Position numbers: made by a program. Of a stretch of DNA of 31,640 nucleotides, positions 9,001 through 15,000 are shown piece after piece. This stretch comes from Candidatus Sumerlaeales bacterium. Lineage in GTDB: Bacteria; Sumerlaeota; Sumerlaeia; Sumerlaeales; Sumerlaeaceae. Within the stretch, counting starts at the first letter, position 1, and the number at the start of each line of letters is the position of its first letter. Location of the stretch: the NCBI GenBank assembly GCA_038243585.1, contig JBBSQY010000040.1, positions 1 to 31,640 of the forward strand, in the 5' to 3' direction.

Positions 9001-12000
9001 CTGAGCGCGCCCCCCAGCAATAAAAGGAAACTCGGACGGGAGCGCACCTCGCGCACATAAAGCTGATCAAAGCCAAGGGGCAGGAGAACAAACGCAACCA
9101 GGTGTACGGACAAAAGCTGACGGTAGGCGCCAAACTCCGTCTCGGTGAGCAGTCGCGCGACCACGGCCACCGATCCAAAAGTAATCAGGCGCTGCGCGAT
9201 ATTTCCCAGCAGCGACCATCTCATTGCCCGGATGGCGTGGGCGGTAGACGGCGGGGAAGGGGCTTGCGAAGAAGGACTATCAGGGCTCAAGTCAGAGCCT
9301 TACGCCGTTACGAAACTCAGGTCCCGCACGTGCTGATAAGCTTCGTCAATGCTCACGCCCGGCGTCAACTTGCTTAGCGCCCATTCTTCTTCGTGGGAGA
9401 CGGTTTCGCCAGCCTTGAGAGGAGCCAGGGGACCAAGGGTTTCCAGTTCCAAAAAATTGGCATCTGTAAAAACTTCCCAGTTGCAGCCAAAATCTGGATA
9501 TTCCGCGTCGGGTTTTAATACCGCTTTCTTAACAAAGGCGTTGCTCCCGAGGATGTAGCATCCCCATCCGACGGAGTTGCGTACTCCGAATTTTAACTGG
9601 TCGTTGCGGGATGGGTCTTGCGCGAGAGCCACGTAGCGGGCGGCCCATTTAAAACGAGGGTCTGACATATCCGTATATTGCCACAGCACCAGCGGCCGCG
9701 CCGGCAGCAGCGCTTTCGGGAACGGCACAAAAGGCTCTTGAGGGATGATCGCTGTTCCGCCAGGAGCAAGGACTGTCAAGGCCCAGGGGGCCGCTGTGAT
9801 CTCCCACTGCCCGTGATTAACGAGCTGGTGAGAAACGGAGACGCTGGGGTCAGTCTCGTGAAGTCGAATTTCCACAATTTTCTGAAGCCCGGTAAGCTCC
9901 TCCACAGCTGGAATAAGCCGAAGAACCTTGCCGTCCCACTCGTGGGCTATGGTTGAGTTATCCGGCACGTAGGTCCGCGGCTTGACTTCCGGTCCATGCC
10001 AAAAGCGGTGCCCACCATAAAGTTTAAAATGTTTGCCGCCCGTGACACCTTTGGTTTCGGAGTCAATATAGAACAGCTTATCATTCTGGTTCTTCCAGCC
10101 AAAATGAAGGATGCGGGGCCCGACTTCAGTTGTCACAACCAGTTCCACAACGTCGTTGGAGAGCTCCAGACACTGCGACCAGCCGGCAAATCTTACTTCT
10201 TTTATCTTTATCATAGATCGATATGTCTCACACTGATTTTATAAAGTTACAGAGTTATTTTGCTGTAACTTAAGTAAAAACAGAAAATTTTTATTTTTAC
10301 CATTTGAAAACAACGATGGAGGGGGCATTGCGTGGGGATAAAAATATATGCAGTTGAACCCCTTTGTAAAGCGCAACCGCCCTTGACACTACCGACACGG
10401 GCACTGCAGTTCTTATCAATCTTCATACTTTGTTCAGGGTTTGGTTGAAAAGGTGGTTACCATTTAGTTGTTGGATAACGAATACATCATAGGCATCGAT
10501 CTCGGGACCACAAATTCTGTTGTGGCAATTCTTGAGGGAGAAAGCCCGAAGGTTATCAGCAACAGCGAGGGCAGCACCCGGACCCCGTCCGTGGTCTCGT
10601 TTCTTGCGGGCGGAGAAATTACGGTTGGAGACGTAGCGCGGCGGCAGGGCGCGGTTAATCCTTCACGAACCGTATACAGCATAAAGCGTCTGATGGGTCG
10701 CACTCCCCAGGATATCGAAGCCTCGGGCATCTACGCCCCCTATACCTTAAAATCAACGGCAGACTCTCAGTTGGTTGTCAGTATTGATGATGCGTTGTAT
10801 ACCCCGGCACAAATTTCTTCTTTTATATTAATGAAGCTGAAGCAGGCGGCCGAAGACCATCTGGGCCAAACCGTGACCAAGGCCATTGTAACGGTGCCGG
10901 CTTATTTTGATGATCTTCAGCGCCAGGCCACCCGCGAAGCCGGACGGCTGGCCGGTCTGGAGATACTGCGCCTGGTAAACGAACCGACCGCCGCTGCGAT
11001 GGCCTATGGCCTTGGCAAGGAAACCAAGGAACGTATCGCCATTTACGACTTTGGCGGCGGCACTTTCGACATGACGATTCTCGAAATTTCGGACGGAACT
11101 TTTGAAGTATTGACGAGCCAGGGAGACACCAGCCTTGGCGGCGACGATATTGATTCCTTACTCGTTCAATTCCTGTTGGATCGTTTCAAGGAGAACACCG
11201 GCGTTAACTTTGAGCCCGACGACATGGCCCGGAGGCGACTAACGGAGGCGGCGGAAAAGGCGAAGTGTGAACTTTCGTTGTCGCCCCAGGCGCTGGTTCA
11301 TTTGCCGTTTCTTGCCCAGGAGAACGGTTCGCCCCTGCATCTGGATACTACGGTGCGCCGGGAGGACTTTGAAGACCTTATCGAGCACCTTGTGGAACGC
11401 AGTCTGGAATGCTGTCGCGCCGCGCTAGCCGATTGCGATTTAAAGGCTACCGAAATTGACAAAGTCATTCTGGTGGGCGGCACCACTCGCATTCCTCTTC
11501 TGCAGGACATGGTGGAGGAACTCTTTGGCGTTGTGCCTTTCAAGGGGATTAATCCCGACGAGATTGTTGCCCTGGGGGCGGCCACCCAGGCGGGGGTTTT
11601 GGCCGGGAAACTCAAAGAAGTCATCCTGCTGGATGTAACCCCGCATACGCTGGGAGTTGAAGTTTCAGAAAACCGGATGACAAAGGTTATCGAAAAAAAC
11701 ACCACCATCCCTGCAAAAGTGGGCCGGCTGTTTACCACCACGGAAGACGGCCAGGAAATGGTGACAATCCACGTATTGCAGGGCGAATCTGAAAAGGCTT
11801 CAGAGAATCGATCCCTTGGCAAGTTTACCCTGACATCCATTGCACCGGCGAAAGCAGGCACTGCGCGGGTGCAGGTTGCGTTTCAGATTAACGCGGACGG
11901 CATGGTAGAGGTTGTGGCAGAGGATATGGCCACGCGGAAACAACAGAGCCTGACCTTGTCTCTCGGTGGCGAGGGTGACACGGTTCAGGCAGCCCGTGAG

Positions 12001-15000
12001 CGCGCGACCGGTGCGGTAAGCGCAAGGCGCAAGCGCCGGCGCACACGGACGGGCGAGAGGGTGTCTTCTCCTGAGCAGGGCACCCCAATAGGCGTGCAGG
12101 CGGCTTCGCAGCCGCAGCGCGATCAAACCGGTGCGAGAACGTTACGGAACAGTGATAGTTCGGTAGCCTCGGTTGTCGCGCCTATTGCCAACGTGCCGCA
12201 GTCAATCGCCGCTTCAATGTCACCCGATGTGGCTCCGGCCTCCAATCAGATGCCCGGCCCGGCGACTCCTCCAGCATCACAGGATGGAACTCAACCGGCA
12301 TTGGACAGCTCTGCTGGCGCAAACTCTTCAGAGCCAGGCAATGCCACGGGCTTGTCGCCGCAGGCTATAAAAGCTTTATCGTTAATTGGAGATAAGGCAG
12401 CTTCGGCCACCTCCTATGAAGTTTATCTAAAATCCTATTCGGAACTGCAGGAGTATGTGCGCCGGAATCCTGCTGATTATACGGTGGCTGAAGGCGCGAC
12501 CCGAATCCTGATGACGCTGGGTGAATGCGACGGCGCGAGGGCTTTGCTAAAGATCATGACGGAAGCTCCTGCCGTGGATTCTGAACGCATTTCCCAGCTG
12601 AAAAAAGAATTCCACGCTCGTTTTCCCAACGACGTCAACTCGACGCAGCCCATTACCTCGCCCGCCGGAACAAAGGAAGGCGTCGACACCGCCATTCGCA
12701 GTATGGAAAAGCGGGTTACAAATGATTCCGGCAGCGTCGACGAGATTGATAATCTGATTCAGCTATACCGCCGCAGGCTTGCCCATGCAGATGATCCTGC
12801 GACTCAGTACAAACTGGTGCAACTTCTCGTGCGCCTCGAGCGGGTAGACGAGGCCATTAACATTCTTCAGCGCCTTGTTCAGCATGAATCCTATCGCGGA
12901 CACTCGCTCAAGATCCTTGGTTTGTGCTTCTGGCAAAAGGGACTGCATTACCTGGCATGGCAAAAATTTCAGCAGCTTCCCCCGTCGGATGAAATCAAGG
13001 ATATCCTGTACAGGCTGGCTGCGGACATGGAAGATACCGACCAGCTACTAAACGCGAAGGTCGTATTTCAGCATCTGGTCAATGCAGATCCGGAATTCCG
13101 GGACGGTGCAGATCGACTGAAAAAGATTGAGGGCATCATCCGGATGGAAGCAGGCAACCGGGAAGCCAGTCTGACCCCGTCGATATTCCTGACTTTGAAA
13201 GATTCCCGGTTTGTCGTTCTTGAAGAGGTTAACCGGGGCAGCATGGGCATCGTTTACCGCGCAAGGGATAAGGTGCTTGAAGAAATAGTTGCCCTGAAAA
13301 TCCTGAACGATTATATGACGACTGACCCATCTGCAGTGGAACGATTTAAACGGGAAGCCCGCGCGGCCAAACGCCTTTCTCACCCCCACATCGTGCGCAT
13401 CCATGATATGTTTGAGTATGGAAATAAGAAGATACTTTCGATGGAGTTTATCGAAGGCGTAGATCTGAAAACCGTGCTCGCGGAACGTAAAACCCTTCCT
13501 CTCTATGAAATCGCCGGCATCGCGCGGCCGGTGTGCGACGCGCTGCAGTATGCCCATCAGCAGTCTATCGTCCATCGCGACATTAAGCCCGCCAACATCA
13601 TGATAACCAATTCGAACCAGGTCAAGGTTACGGATTTCGGCATTGCCAAGGTACTGCTTGCGGGGCGCGATTCCACCCGGTCCGGATCGCAGATTATCGG
13701 GACTCCTCTATATATGTCGCCAGAGCAGATTATGGGCGACGATGTGGACGCCCGGACGGATATCTACAGTTTCGGCGCAACCATGTACGAACTGGCCACA
13801 GGCAAGCCGCCCTTCCTGGACGGCAACATTGAATATCATCACCTTCACACGTTGCCCCCGCCCATGACGGAAACAGTGCCGCTGGCGCTCCAGCAGATCA
13901 TTTTCAAGTGCCTGGAAAAGAAACCGGAAGACCGATATCCAGCGATCAGCCAGGTGGCGGACGCGCTGGTGAAGCTAAGCCAGGGGTAGGCAGTGGGCGA
14001 CAGCGCAAAGCAAAGCAAAGACCTGGTGGGAAACAGGATTTTTCGCAACCGAGAAGATGCCACGTAAGTGGCGAGTTTGTCTGAACTGATATAGCTTTTG
14101 AGTTGTAGGTTTTTTGAAATGAACTTTACACCAACGGCAAAGGACAGGCCTTGTCTTCTAACCAACCCTCTCAACTTCGCGGCCTCCTGGAAGAATCCGG
14201 CATGGGCTGGTTGTTTAATAGCGACGATGCCGATGAGCGTGCCTGCGCACTTGCATCGGATTTCCAGTTGGCTGAGTTAACGTACAATAGCCTGTACAGC
14301 AACCAAAAGGACTTTTACCCCCTGGTCTCAAGCGAGACGGGTCAGCTTAAATACAAGGCGTTTCTTCAAAGCTTTGCTTTGCCCCTATCGACAGAAGCCC
14401 GAGTAATTATTTTTCGCATACTGGACGGCGCGGTGATCCGCAATATGGATTTTAGTTATACCAAAGGCTCGACATCCAGACTTCAGATACGGTTCAGCGA
14501 TGATGAGTTTTATATATTGGCCGACGGTGCCTGGGACGTATTGCTAATTAAACAGTTAAGTTTTTTTGAATCTCAGAACCTGCTCGAAGTCGGAAGCATA
14601 AGCCCCTGGGAAAATTTGGCTACTCCGAATTTCAATGAGGATGTAAAGTGACAACCGCGACCAACGAAGCGTCAGATTATGCTGCTATGGCAGGCTCGCC
14701 TTTTAGAACGTCACGGCGCACGGTAGATACAGTCCGATTTCGATCGATGCAAACCGTGCGTGAGCTACAAGCATTAACGCAGGAATGCGGTAGCCCCAAC
14801 TGGGATGGGTATGGAGCCTCACCTGTAATCCCAGAGACTCTTGATTTGGCCCGCCGTCTGGCTTTTGCTCTACCTTTTGACATTCCATTGCCCTCCGTTG
14901 GCGCGGAGGCCGACGGACACCTGACGTTTGAATGGTACGAGGGGCCACGAAACGTCCTGTCTTTAAGTGTTAGTCCTGAAGGATTGCTCTGTTACGCCGC

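What a model noticed while it worked through the whole genome (the two positions that open the first line are those of the whole stretch)
10471..13989. Hsp70 chaperone module fused to a Hanks-type Ser/Thr kinase, conserved across Sumerlaeaceae
g02137 (1172 aa) joins a full Hsp70 nucleotide-binding domain and beta-sandwich substrate-binding domain (no helical lid) through a Ser/Pro/Ala-rich linker and a helical TPR-like region to a complete C-terminal Ser/Thr kinase domain, with no membrane segment. I read it as a one-protein proteotoxic-stress sensor in which client binding to the Hsp70 part switches the kinase, the fused bacterial counterpart of BiP-controlled IRE1/PERK signalling. That would be a new logic for bacterial stress signalling and a compact chaperone-gated kinase for synthetic biology.
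Evidence so far: pfam.tsv: HSP70 613 bits, model 1-503 of 599, residues 6-503; Pkinase 181 bits, residues 916-1158. No 19-residue window with mean Kyte-Doolittle hydropathy above 1.6. The genome also has two ordinary DnaK genes (g00645 with DnaJ next to it, g01856). tblastn with residues 504-1172: the best match in 10 of 12 other family genomes lies in an open frame of 1159-1236 codons (47-75% identity), in one of 783 codons, and one genome has only weaker kinase matches; a second paralogue group has frames of about 1620 codons.
(Added by a program. Inside this text positions count along the whole contig: contig position 1 is position 1 of the stretch shown here. "Call 12" and the like, gene names such as g00115 and contig names such as C1 are that model's own, and its searches are not shown. 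The text may have been shortened before it was handed on; [...] marks where a part breaks off. The agent that wrote the report below was given it as the finding of a first reader that could run no searches.)

Follow-up and report, generated by a model that had tools for sequence, protein, structure and literature searches.

The report
Lidless Hsp70 fused to protein kinase
One intact gene, kept across most of the uncultured phylum Sumerlaeota, joins a working-looking Hsp70 chaperone without its lid to a PknB-like Ser/Thr kinase, and it may turn protein-folding state into phosphorylation, which nobody has tested.

Summary
Window 10471-13989 (+) is one 1172-aa frame with these parts:
- an Hsp70 nucleotide-binding domain and beta-sandwich with no lid
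- a short Arg-rich helix
- about 100 disordered residues
- 13 TPR-like helices
- a PknB-like kinase

There is no membrane segment. Across 114 relatives the Hsp70 ATPase, interdomain-linker and pocket residues are invariant or nearly so. So are the kinase catalytic residues, an activation-loop Thr and the counterparts of the PknB dimer-interface residues.

The fusion is phylum-wide, not only in the family. Of 75 Sumerlaeota genomes, 50 carry both modules in one frame, 13 hold pieces and 12 hold none. The roughly 1620-codon paralogues have no Hsp70. The one examined is a receptor kinase (FG-GAP, membrane segment, TPR, kinase), so Hsp70 occupies the input slot of a shared TPR-kinase cassette.

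Hsp70-kinase fusions in both orders also occur elsewhere, and an AU test rejects a single origin (p 0.004). No operon partner is conserved.

The mechanism is inferred only. My best reading is client-driven clustering of the kinase. The BiP/IRE1 analogy is plausible but untested.

The architecture class has been catalogued since 2005 and databases label it "DnaK". No functional study turned up. This scan met the family before, in other genomes.

The parts
10450..10456 (+). Shine-Dalgarno-like AAGGTGG, 11 nt before TTG 10468 and 14 nt before TTG 10471
   Evidence: Read directly from the sequence.
10471..13989 (+). Whole gene: 1172 codons plus the stop. An alternative TTG start lies at 10468.
   Evidence: The identical protein is on record as P0002.
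10471..11610 (+). Hsp70 nucleotide-binding domain, residues about 1-380
   Evidence: Pfam HSP70 and NCBIfam DnaK matches. D10, K72, E171, D193, G195-D200, G336, G337 and R340 are invariant or at least 95% conserved in 112-114 relatives. pLDDT is above 90.
11617..11643 (+). Interdomain linker, residues 383-391 (EVILLDVTP)
   Evidence: L386 and P391 are invariant. E383, V384, L387 and V389 are at least 90% conserved.
11644..11961 (+). Substrate-binding beta-sandwich (SBD-beta), residues about 392-497
   Evidence: The Pfam HSP70 match ends at model position 503 of 599. P414, F421, Q428, V431, Q437 and G438 are invariant. The model has eight strands here. The model is closest to domain-docked DnaK and BiP structures, TM 0.90.
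11983..12039 (+). Arg-rich helix, residues 505-523, at the place of the missing lid's first helices
   Evidence: AF2 predicts helix 505-523 at pLDDT about 54. It aligns with the start of the mortalin lid. Arg at 511 and 519-526 is present in 46-81% of 114 sequences.
12040..12342 (+). Disordered Ala/Ser/Pro-rich linker, residues 524-624
   Evidence: pLDDT is below 50 throughout. Linker length in the family is 99-287 residues, median 163. No conserved motif apart from prolines.
12358..13158 (+). TPR-like helical repeat array, residues 630-896, 13 helices. The block at about 780-870 is strongly conserved.
   Evidence: AF2 helices with pLDDT mostly above 90. Pfam TPR_19 scores 25.4 against a cut-off of 25. 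W821, W830, Y847 and R848 are at least 90% conserved. The block is shared with Hsp70-less paralogues.
13183..13986 (+). Hanks-type (PknB-like) Ser/Thr kinase domain, residues 905-1172
   Evidence: Pfam Pkinase at 182 bits. PknB kinase domain is the best structural match, TM 0.86 at 35-37% identity. K943, E962, H1035-R-D1037, K1039, N1042 and D1055-F-G1057 are invariant, and T1069 is at least 90% conserved. R913, L936 and D979 align with PknB R10, L33 and D76.

Best explanation
The gene encodes a soluble cytoplasmic Ser/Thr kinase whose input domain is a complete, ATP-driven Hsp70 clamp that lacks its lid and can probably be loaded by J-proteins.

Most likely mechanism (inferred, not shown):
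1. The Hsp70 module is tethered by a 100-290-residue disordered linker. It binds exposed hydrophobic segments of unfolded or aggregated proteins, probably after J-proteins deliver them.
2. Several fusion molecules gather on the same client.
3. This proximity lets the PknB-like kinase domains pair through their conserved N-lobe interface and phosphorylate each other's activation loops (T1069).
4. The active kinase then phosphorylates downstream targets or the bound clients themselves.

On this reading the protein works like a receptor kinase whose ligand is unfolded protein. What is shown is the anatomy, the intactness and conservation of both engines, and the input-slot position of Hsp70. Client binding, clustering, activation and substrates are all inferred.
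For: **Hsp70 engine.**
- ATPase motifs, the interdomain linker, pocket residues and R167/N170/T173 are invariant or at least 98% conserved in 112-114 relatives. I recall the last three as the J-domain contact residues of E. coli DnaK.
- The DnaK equivalog NF001413 scores above its cut-off.
- The AF2 model matches domain-docked DnaK and BiP states at TM 0.90, against 0.57-0.65 for undocked states.

**Kinase.**
- All catalytic residues are invariant, and activation-loop T1069 is at least 90% conserved.
- R913, L936 and D979 align with PknB R10, L33 and D76 and are invariant or at least 90% conserved. I recall these as the back-to-back dimer interface. PDB titles name the L33D and D76A mutants.

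**Input slot.**
- Paralogues share the conserved TPR block plus kinase at 40-46% identity.
- The one examined carries FG-GAP repeats, a signal-like N-terminus and a membrane segment near residue 515 in place of Hsp70.

**Tether rather than rigid coupling.**
- The linker is disordered and varies from 99 to 287 residues.
- pTM is only 0.54 for the whole protein and 0.49 for the TPR-kinase part.

**Recurrent fusion.**
- 11 Hsp70-then-kinase and 13 kinase-then-Hsp70 representatives lack the Sumerlaeota helical block.
- The AU test rejects one clade for all fusion Hsp70 cores: p 0.0044, log-likelihood difference 113.8.

**Supporting parts in the same genome.** It has 4 J-domain genes, 1 PP2C match and 9 FHA matches.
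Against: - There is no experimental, expression or substrate evidence of any kind.
- No operon partner is conserved. No neighbour family is shared by more than 3 of 22 loci. None of 38 immediate neighbours from 19 loci is a J-domain, GrpE, PP2C, FHA or STAS protein.
- The anatomy fits a titration switch, plain client targeting, or kinase control of the chaperone equally well.
- Conservation of the PknB-type interface residues could reflect kinase fold stability rather than dimerisation.
- The roles I assign to DnaK and PknB residues are recalled, not tested here.
- 12 of 75 genomes show no orthologue-level match. These include all 7 genomes of family f16, one of them a closed 6.0 Mb genome, so the function is dispensable.
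Confidence: 0.35

Rival explanations
1. Titration switch, the first reader's BiP-IRE1/PERK analogue. At rest the Hsp70 module holds its own linker or TPR-kinase part and keeps the kinase monomeric and inactive. Accumulating unfolded proteins compete for the clamp and release the kinase.
For: - The Hsp70 cycle and the kinase both look intact.
- Covalent tethering gives a high local concentration for a contact within the same molecule.
- I recall that loss of the lid speeds client exchange in DnaK, which would suit a sensor.
- Hsp70 sits in the input slot of the cassette.
Against: - The linker has no conserved hydrophobic client-like motif. Only prolines, an Arg-rich helix and a Phe in 59% of sequences, which is missing in this protein, are conserved.
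- AF2 shows no confident contact between the modules.
- Independent fusions in both domain orders, with linkers of very different length, fit proximity logic better than one specific inhibitory geometry.
Confidence: 0.2
2. Client-directed kinase. The kinase is active on its own, and the Hsp70 module only brings it to J-protein/client complexes. It then phosphorylates bound clients, co-chaperones or ordinary DnaK, for example to mark, hold or triage misfolded proteins.
For: - The tether is long and flexible.
- The counterparts of the DnaK J-contact residues are conserved.
- Fusion recurs in either domain order, as expected if co-localisation alone is what matters.
- 9 of 13 kinase-then-Hsp70 representatives also end 27 residues or fewer after SBD-beta, so they too lack a lid.
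Against: - The near-invariant activation-loop Thr and the dimer-interface counterparts suggest a regulated kinase, not a constitutive one.
- No substrate is known.
- The conserved TPR block is not needed by this model.
Confidence: 0.2
3. The kinase regulates the chaperone within the same molecule. On this reading the protein is mainly a specialised Hsp70, and autophosphorylation of the linker, the Arg-rich helix or the Hsp70 part tunes its ATPase or client affinity.
For: - The linker is rich in Ser and Thr: median S+T is 16% across 114 sequences.
- An Arg-rich stretch followed by Thr and Ser lies next to SBD-beta.
- Hsp70 phosphorylation is widely documented in eukaryotes (PMC6747476, search listing only).
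Against: - The same TPR-kinase cassette serves Hsp70-less receptor-type paralogues. The kinase therefore looks like the output, not an accessory.
- The linker sequence is not conserved.
Confidence: 0.1
4. Not a proteostasis device. The Hsp70 module would be used as an ATP-dependent scaffold or assembly element in some other process, for example a conflict or defence system or a developmental pathway.
For: - Hsp70-family proteins occur in GTPase-centred conflict systems (PMC7159879, passages read).
- PADLOC kinase models such as PD-T4-6 and mad6 match the kinase domain strongly, up to 272 bits.
Against: - The PADLOC matches cover only the generic kinase domain, residues about 908-1172.
- There is no defence-island context and no conserved neighbour.
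- The gene is vertically conserved across 16 of 18 families of the phylum.
- The Hsp70 part scores as a true DnaK.
Confidence: 0.07

Closest known systems
Bacterial DnaK (Hsp70), such as E. coli DnaK (PDB 4b9q, 2kho, 7kzu), and lid-truncated forms
   Same: - 48% identity over about 525 aligned columns.
- Same ATPase motifs, interdomain linker and beta-sandwich pocket.
- NCBIfam DnaK model NF001413 scores above its cut-off.
   Different: - No helical lid.
- It scores below the cut-off of the second DnaK equivalog, TIGR02350: 661 against 822.55.
- It carries about 670 extra residues ending in a kinase.
- The same genome also holds three stand-alone Hsp70 genes.
PknB-type Hanks kinases (M. tuberculosis PknB and PknA, S. 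pneumoniae StkP)
   Same: - 35-37% identity and TM up to 0.86 to the PknB kinase domain.
- All catalytic residues are present, with an activation-loop Thr/Ser pair.
- The counterparts of PknB R10, L33 and D76 are conserved.
   Different: - No membrane segment and no PASTA domains.
- The kinase is C-terminal, preceded by a TPR-like array and an Hsp70.
- It scores below the PknB_PASTA_kin cut-off: 294 against 450.
- The first Gly of the Gly-rich loop is Asn, and that Asn is invariant (N921).
'Kinase + HSP70' of Pirellula (gi 32474490; Krupa and Srinivasan 2005, PMC1262709), with the HSP70+Pkinase clusters labelled Planctomycetota and Actinomycetota
   Same: - One protein joins a Hanks kinase and an Hsp70 (passages read).
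- 9 of 13 kinase-then-Hsp70 representatives also have no room for a lid.
- No functional study was found for these either.
   Different: - The domain order is opposite or the linkers are shorter.
- They have no conserved TPR block.
- Their Hsp70 cores do not group with the Sumerlaeota clade, and the AU test rejects one origin.
BiP-regulated IRE1/PERK of the eukaryotic unfolded-protein response
   Same: The idea is the same: an Hsp70 and a kinase activated by oligomerisation together report unfolded-protein load. This comparison rests on recalled biology, not on a test here.
   Different: - Not homologous in its sensor part.
- No membrane segment, luminal domain or RNase domain.
- Hsp70 is joined covalently instead of associating reversibly.
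- The kinase is PknB-like.
Paralogous Sumerlaeota receptor-type kinases (FG-GAP, membrane segment, TPR, kinase; about 1610-1830 aa)
   Same: They share the conserved TPR block and kinase at 40-46% identity over query residues about 737-1166.
   Different: - In place of Hsp70 they carry an extracytoplasmic FG-GAP module, a signal-like N-terminus and one membrane segment.
- Only one member, from G066, was examined in detail.

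Membership tests
Hsp70/DnaK (PF00012; NCBIfam NF001413, TIGR02350) | Actin-like ATPase domain with phosphate-binding and adenosine motifs and the catalytic Lys and Glu | tested here: met
   Counterparts D10, K72, E171, D193, T198, D200 and G336-G337 are invariant or at least 95% conserved. E. coli DnaK residue numbering is recalled.
Hsp70/DnaK (PF00012; NCBIfam NF001413, TIGR02350) | Conserved hydrophobic interdomain linker and beta-sandwich substrate pocket | tested here: met
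   EVILLDVTP at 383-391. F421, V431, Q437 and G438 are invariant. The fold matches docked DnaK and BiP at TM 0.90.
Hsp70/DnaK (PF00012; NCBIfam NF001413, TIGR02350) | Alpha-helical lid (SBD-alpha) | tested here: not met
   The Pfam match stops at model position 503 of 599. The lid HMM hits 0 of 19 Sumerlaeota-type fusions but hits the genome's own DnaK at 2.3e-29. The HMM's sensitivity is limited: it hit only 26 of 67 other stand-alone Hsp70s.
Hsp70/DnaK (PF00012; NCBIfam NF001413, TIGR02350) | Curated whole-protein score cut-offs | tested here: inconclusive
   NF001413 scores 684.7 against 648 and passes. TIGR02350 scores 661.4 against 822.55 and fails. NF009947 and NF009946 also fail.
Hsp70/DnaK (PF00012; NCBIfam NF001413, TIGR02350) | ATPase stimulated by J-domain proteins, and client folding activity | not testable with these tools
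   The only evidence is indirect. Counterparts of the recalled DnaK J-contact residues (R167, N170, T173) are 98-100% conserved, and the genome has 4 J-domain genes.
Hanks-type Ser/Thr kinase (PF00069) | Catalytic core: Lys of strand beta-3, Glu of helix C, HRD, catalytic-loop Asn, DFG and the (A/S)PE motif | tested here: met
   K943, E962, H1035-R1036-D1037, N1042, D1055-F-G1057 and P1084-E1085 are invariant in 114 sequences. Pkinase scores 182 bits against a cut-off of 31.7.
Hanks-type Ser/Thr kinase (PF00069) | Canonical GxGxxG glycine-rich loop | tested here: inconclusive
   The loop reads N921-R-G923-S-M-G926. The first Gly is replaced by an invariant Asn and the other two Gly are invariant.
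PknB-like kinases regulated by dimerisation | N-lobe back-to-back interface residues and activation-loop Thr phosphorylation | tested here: inconclusive
   R913, L936 and D979 align with PknB R10, L33 and D76 and are conserved. T1069 and S1071 lie two positions from PknB T171 and T173. Dimerisation and phosphorylation themselves cannot be tested here.
TPR repeat proteins | Tandem helix-turn-helix repeats recognised by TPR profiles | tested here: inconclusive
   Only TPR_19 passes its cut-off, 25.4 against 25, and other TPR models fall below theirs. AF2 gives 13 helices at 630-896. The G066 orthologue gives stronger TPR matches.
BiP-IRE1/PERK unfolded-protein-response sensors | Transmembrane kinase with a luminal sensor domain that binds BiP reversibly, plus an RNase domain (IRE1) or eIF2-alpha specificity (PERK) | tested here: not met
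   No membrane segment: the highest hydropathy mean is 1.27. Pfam finds no other domain. The kinase is closest to PknB. This is an analogy of logic only.
Anti-phage defence kinases (PADLOC PD-T4-6, mad6, PglW) | Match beyond the kinase domain, and a defence-system gene context | tested here: not met
   The matches are confined to residues about 908-1172. The neighbours are unrelated and not conserved.

The most novel reading that the evidence does not exclude
Sumerlaeota possess a one-protein cytosolic unfolded-protein response. An Hsp70 clamp serves as the ligand-binding domain of a soluble receptor-like kinase, which switches on when many copies crowd onto misfolded proteins. On this reading bacteria invented the same solution several times, as shown by the independent fusions labelled Planctomycetota and Actinomycetota and by an archaeal Hsp70-GrpE-kinase noted earlier in this scan. 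Chaperone-coupled Ser/Thr signalling would then be a general but overlooked branch of prokaryotic stress signalling.
Probability: 0.3. Interest if true: 0.85.

Novelty: new variant of a known kind. Interest (0 to 1): 0.6.

Why it matters
In bacteria, proteotoxic stress is known to be sensed mainly through chaperone titration of transcription factors, such as sigma-32 with DnaK and HrcA with GroEL (recalled). A kinase wired directly to an Hsp70 would be a different, post-translational route.

The family makes this testable:
- It is a single soluble protein with two well-understood engines.
- Clear point mutants are available in the ATPase, the pocket, the dimer interface and the activation loop.
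- Natural paralogues swap the Hsp70 for a conventional sensor.
- Fusions of independent origin offer a comparison.

If client binding does control the kinase, the protein would also be a compact part for building reporters of folding stress.

There is a practical point as well. Sequence databases label these 1150-1370-residue proteins simply as 'molecular chaperone DnaK' or 'Hsp70 family protein'. That label hides the kinase.

Tried and rejected
- **Complex prediction.** Complex prediction with the Hsp70 module (1-500) against the TPR-kinase part (760-1172) returned 'no answer', score 0.00, and the controls were not run. It counts neither for nor against binding.
- **Expression.** The look-up of sequencing runs listed no RNA holder. 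One DNA run holds the whole stretch and may be the source sample. Two other runs hold small shares that I did not lay.
- **Naming organisms for the other fusions.** The search for related loci in genome contigs with the kinase-then-Hsp70 representative P0133 returned one locus, a Bradymonadales MAG. Only the kinase matched there, and my HMMs found no Hsp70.
- **Origin of the Hsp70 module.** FastTree places the Sumerlaeota clade next to the genome's C6 DnaK paralogue with support 98. An IQ-TREE quick tree on a smaller row set leaves that position unresolved, with supports 19-33. I therefore do not claim a donor lineage.
- **Operon partners.**
  - The two downstream ORFs, 14151-14651 and 14648-15109, have no Pfam or PADLOC family.
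  - They were not found by tblastn in the 39 loci held at that point, which include both same-genus genomes.
  - Clustering the neighbours in 22 loci, and scanning 38 immediate neighbours against Pfam, found nothing conserved.
- **Cis-client motif in the linker.** None was found.
- **Literature.** Four searches, plus term look-ups in seven papers, found no functional study of an Hsp70-kinase fusion:
  - PMC1262709 only lists the Pirellula case.
  - PMC7159879 describes Hsp70 in GTPase-centred conflict systems, not fused to kinases.
  - PMC8092238, PMC10866078, PMC11019930 and bioRxiv 10.1101/2025.01.12.632604 do not mention such a fusion.
  - PMC11032199 was seen only in a search listing, which showed 0 Hsp70 occurrences.
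  - Subscription journals and supplementary files were not searched.
- One search failed on a search-term syntax error and was resent. One search failed because the AU test needs an IQ-TREE tree; it was redone.

Full report
**The observation**

Window 10468/10471-13989 (+) is one uninterrupted frame of 1172 codons. Two tandem TTG codons are possible starts, and AAGGTGG lies 11-14 nt upstream.

- Pfam finds HSP70 at 613.7 bits over residues 6-503, which is model positions 1-503 of 599. It finds Pkinase at 182.2 bits over 916-1158, and one TPR model just over its cut-off (TPR_19, 25.4 against 25).
- NCBIfam's DnaK equivalog NF001413 scores 684.7 against a cut-off of 648. The other DnaK models fall below theirs.
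- The highest 19-residue Kyte-Doolittle mean is 1.27, so no membrane segment is predicted. Residues 501-640 are rich in Ala, Ser and Pro.

It is a gene, not a chance frame: the identical protein and 117 of the 120 best database clusters carry both PF00012 and PF00069.

**Anatomy**

An AlphaFold2 model built on 114 relatives has mean pLDDT 84.5 and pTM 0.54. It gives:

| Residues | Feature |
|---|---|
| 1-497 | Confident Hsp70 nucleotide-binding domain and beta-sandwich |
| 505-523 | Weak helix, pLDDT about 54 |
| 524-624 | Disorder |
| 630-896 | 13 helices |
| 897-903 | Low-confidence hinge |
| 905-1172 | Kinase, with a low-confidence activation loop at 1063-1073 |

- The Hsp70 part superposes best on domain-docked structures: truncated DnaK 7kzu and AMPylated BiP at TM 0.90, and ATP-open DnaK 4b9q at 0.79. 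It fits undocked ADP forms less well, at 0.57-0.65.
- The kinase superposes on M. tuberculosis PknB at TM up to 0.86 and 35-37% identity.
- A separate model of residues 625-1172 has pTM 0.49 and the same floppy hinge.

Nothing therefore suggests rigid packing of the modules. The protein looks like beads on a string.

**The lid**

The lid is missing. The Pfam match stops at model position 503 of 599. A lid HMM that I built from 33 ordinary DnaKs hits this genome's DnaK on C30 at 2.3e-29 and hits 0 of 19 Sumerlaeota-type fusions. That HMM is not very sensitive, because it hit only 26 of 67 other stand-alone Hsp70s.

The short helix at 505-523 aligns with the start of the mortalin lid. It is Arg-rich in most relatives. 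Its role is unexplained.

**Are both engines intact?**

I aligned 114 full-length relatives at 41-84% identity to the query (a first pass with 112 is).

Invariant or nearly invariant Hsp70 residues:
- the phosphate-binding loops (D10; D193 to D200)
- K72 and E171
- the adenosine motif (G336, G337, R340)
- the interdomain linker (L386, P391)
- pocket residues (F421, V431, Q437, G438)
- R167, N170 and T173, which I recall as the J-domain contact residues of E. coli DnaK

Invariant kinase residues are K943, E962, H1035-R-D1037, K1039, N1042 and D1055-F-G1057. T1069 in the activation loop is at least 90% conserved.

In the HMMER alignment to PknB, R913, L936 and D979 fall on PknB R10, L33 and D76. 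I recall these as the back-to-back dimer interface, and PDB titles name L33D and D76A mutants. They are invariant or at least 90% conserved here.

Conservation collapses in the linker, where mean identity is 0.08-0.24 and gaps are many. It rises again in a block at about 780-870 of the helical array.

**Distribution**

I searched all 75 Sumerlaeota species genomes held, using the C-terminal half and then the whole protein. Six ambiguous loci were checked with my own HMMs. I counted by hand from those tables.

| Category | Genomes (of 75) | Which |
|---|---|---|
| Hsp70 and kinase complete in one open frame | 45 | |
| Both in one frame, cut by a contig end | 5 | G010, G022, G028, G045, G048 |
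| Gene split into two adjacent frames | 3 | G031, G032, G063 |
| Two halves on different contigs | 6 | G001, G006, G008, G019, G030, G040 |
| One fragment at orthologue-level similarity | 4 | G005, G013, G037, G050 |
| No orthologue-level match | 12 | G012, G014, G018, G064, G074, G067-G073 |

G067-G073 are all seven genomes of family f16, including one closed 6.0 Mb genome. The gene is thus present in 16 of the 18 families, including one genome (G001) outside the window's class. These genomes are related to one another, so the counts show vertical retention, not independent events.

**Paralogues**

The same searches show further kinase groups that share only the conserved helical block and the kinase, at 35-46% identity and in frames of about 1110, 1430-1460 and 1610-1830 codons. 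I examined one of each.
- The 1611-aa protein of G066 has FG-GAP repeats, many TPRs and the kinase.
- The 1100-aa protein of G023 has TPRs, a beta-propeller and the kinase.
- The 910 residues I fetched of the 1454-codon frame have TPRs and the kinase.

None has Hsp70. The FG-GAP protein has a signal-like N-terminus and a hydrophobic segment near residue 515 with mean hydropathy 1.93. That is the layout of a receptor kinase.

In the fusion, Hsp70 therefore stands where a paralogue carries its sensor domain. This is the strongest anatomical argument that Hsp70 is the input and the kinase is the output.

**Beyond the phylum**

A full HMMER scan of 1.84 billion cluster representatives, followed by my own Hsp70, helical-block and kinase HMMs, found both Hsp70 and kinase in 28 of the 139 new representatives.
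- 4 are the Sumerlaeota type.
- 11 are Hsp70-then-kinase without the helical block.
- 13 are kinase-then-Hsp70.

The ESM Atlas lists HSP70+Pkinase clusters whose commonest label is Planctomycetota (three clusters) or Actinomycetota (one). These are leads without alignments.

On trees of the Hsp70 cores, the Sumerlaeota fusions form one clade, with support 96 in FastTree and 100 in IQ-TREE quick. The other fusions are scattered among ordinary DnaKs. An AU test rejects a tree that holds all 32 fusion rows together: log-likelihood difference 113.8, p 0.0044. Fusion of Hsp70 to a Hanks kinase has therefore happened repeatedly and in both orders.

Nine of the 13 kinase-then-Hsp70 representatives end 27 residues or fewer after the beta-sandwich, so they too have no room for a lid. 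Six of the 24 non-Sumerlaeota fusions do show a lid-like match.

**Context**

The neighbours in the window are unrelated. A polysaccharide exporter and a weak DUF4380-like ORF (below its cut-off) lie upstream on the other strand. Downstream are two overlapping ORFs without any family, and then uvrB.
- The two small ORFs were not found beside any orthologue held at that point, including both same-genus genomes.
- In 22 loci with about 6 kb of flank, no neighbour family is shared by more than three loci, all within one family.
- Of 38 immediate neighbours from 19 loci, none is a J-domain, GrpE, PP2C, FHA or STAS protein.

The gene stands alone. Elsewhere the genome has 4 J-domain genes, two of them beside stand-alone Hsp70 genes, plus one PP2C match, 9 FHA matches and 8 further kinase-domain matches.

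**How it most likely works**

Shown:
- a soluble protein with an intact, constrained Hsp70 engine without a lid
- a flexible tether of variable length
- a conserved helical block
- an intact PknB-like kinase with a conserved activation-loop Thr and conserved counterparts of the PknB dimer interface
- Hsp70 in the input slot of a cassette that a paralogue uses as a receptor kinase
- recurrent independent fusion

Inferred:
1. The clamp binds unfolded segments, probably handed over by J-proteins.
2. Several molecules collect on one client.
3. Proximity drives N-lobe pairing and trans-phosphorylation.
4. The active kinase signals onward.

I put this at about 0.35.

Independent fusions in both orders with very different linkers favour proximity logic over one specific inhibitory geometry. 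This is an argument, not a test.

**Known or new?**

A 'Kinase + HSP70' protein of Pirellula was tabulated in 2005 without functional work (PMC1262709, passages read). Two genomic studies of Sumerlaeota do not mention Hsp70, DnaK or a protein kinase of this kind (PMC8092238 and PMC10866078, term look-ups). Neither a survey of DnaK duplication (PMC11019930) nor a 2025 atlas of bacterial Ser/Thr kinases (bioRxiv 10.1101/2025.01.12.632604) mentions such a fusion. Four full-text searches found no functional study. Subscription journals and supplements were not covered.

Earlier notes of this scan describe the same family in two other Sumerlaeota genomes and related fusions in archaea and myxobacteria.

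I class it as a new variant of known kinds, namely Hanks kinases with accessory input domains and specialised Hsp70 paralogues. The reality of the gene is well supported. Its function is open.

Noticed in passing
window 14151-14651 (+) and 14648-15109 (+): Two overlapping ORFs of 166 and 153 aa, sharing 4 nt, lie just downstream of the fusion gene. They have no Pfam or PADLOC family and no counterpart in the 39 loci held at the time, which include both same-genus genomes. This looks like a genome-specific gene pair of unknown function.
   Followed up: partly
window 17824-20068 (-): A sigma-70 region 2/4 protein of 224 aa (ECF-like) is followed on the same strand by two family-less ORFs of 161 and 363 aa. 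Their ends overlap by 4 nt. This may be a sigma/anti-sigma operon.
   Followed up: no
window 25129-27858 (-): A 909-aa protein whose only recognised part is a central PpiC-type prolyl isomerase domain at residues about 505-627. That is unusually long for a parvulin.
   Followed up: no
own genome, contig C39 18749-22304 (-) (loci L004 and L005): A third stand-alone Hsp70 of 591 aa sits beside a 437-aa J-domain protein. My lid HMM found no lid in it.
   Followed up: partly
L037:2927-7762 (+) (G066) and the roughly 1610-1830-codon frames: A phylum-wide paralogue group of giant receptor-type kinases: signal-like N-terminus, FG-GAP repeats, one membrane segment, a long TPR array and a kinase. They share their TPR-kinase cassette with the Hsp70 fusion.
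   Followed up: partly
proteins P0137, P0141, P0148, P0170, P0215: Proteins of 1536-2592 aa from unnamed metagenomic sources carry four to six tandem Hanks kinase domains.
   Followed up: no
proteins P0136, P0138, P0154, P0155, P0166, P0193, P0222: Single proteins hold two tandem Hsp70 cores, in total lengths of 823-1265 aa.
   Followed up: no
L042:9666-11444 (-) and L043:4184-5842 (+): A KaiC-like double-ATPase gene lies directly upstream of the fusion gene in two genomes of the window's family, G065 and G060. Two-receiver response regulators lie upstream in two genomes of family f11 (L052, L054).
   Followed up: no
P0001 residues 505-526 (window 11983-12048): An Arg-rich helix directly after the beta-sandwich is conserved across the family. 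Arg is present in 46-81% of 114 sequences at eight positions. No explanation so far.
   Followed up: partly
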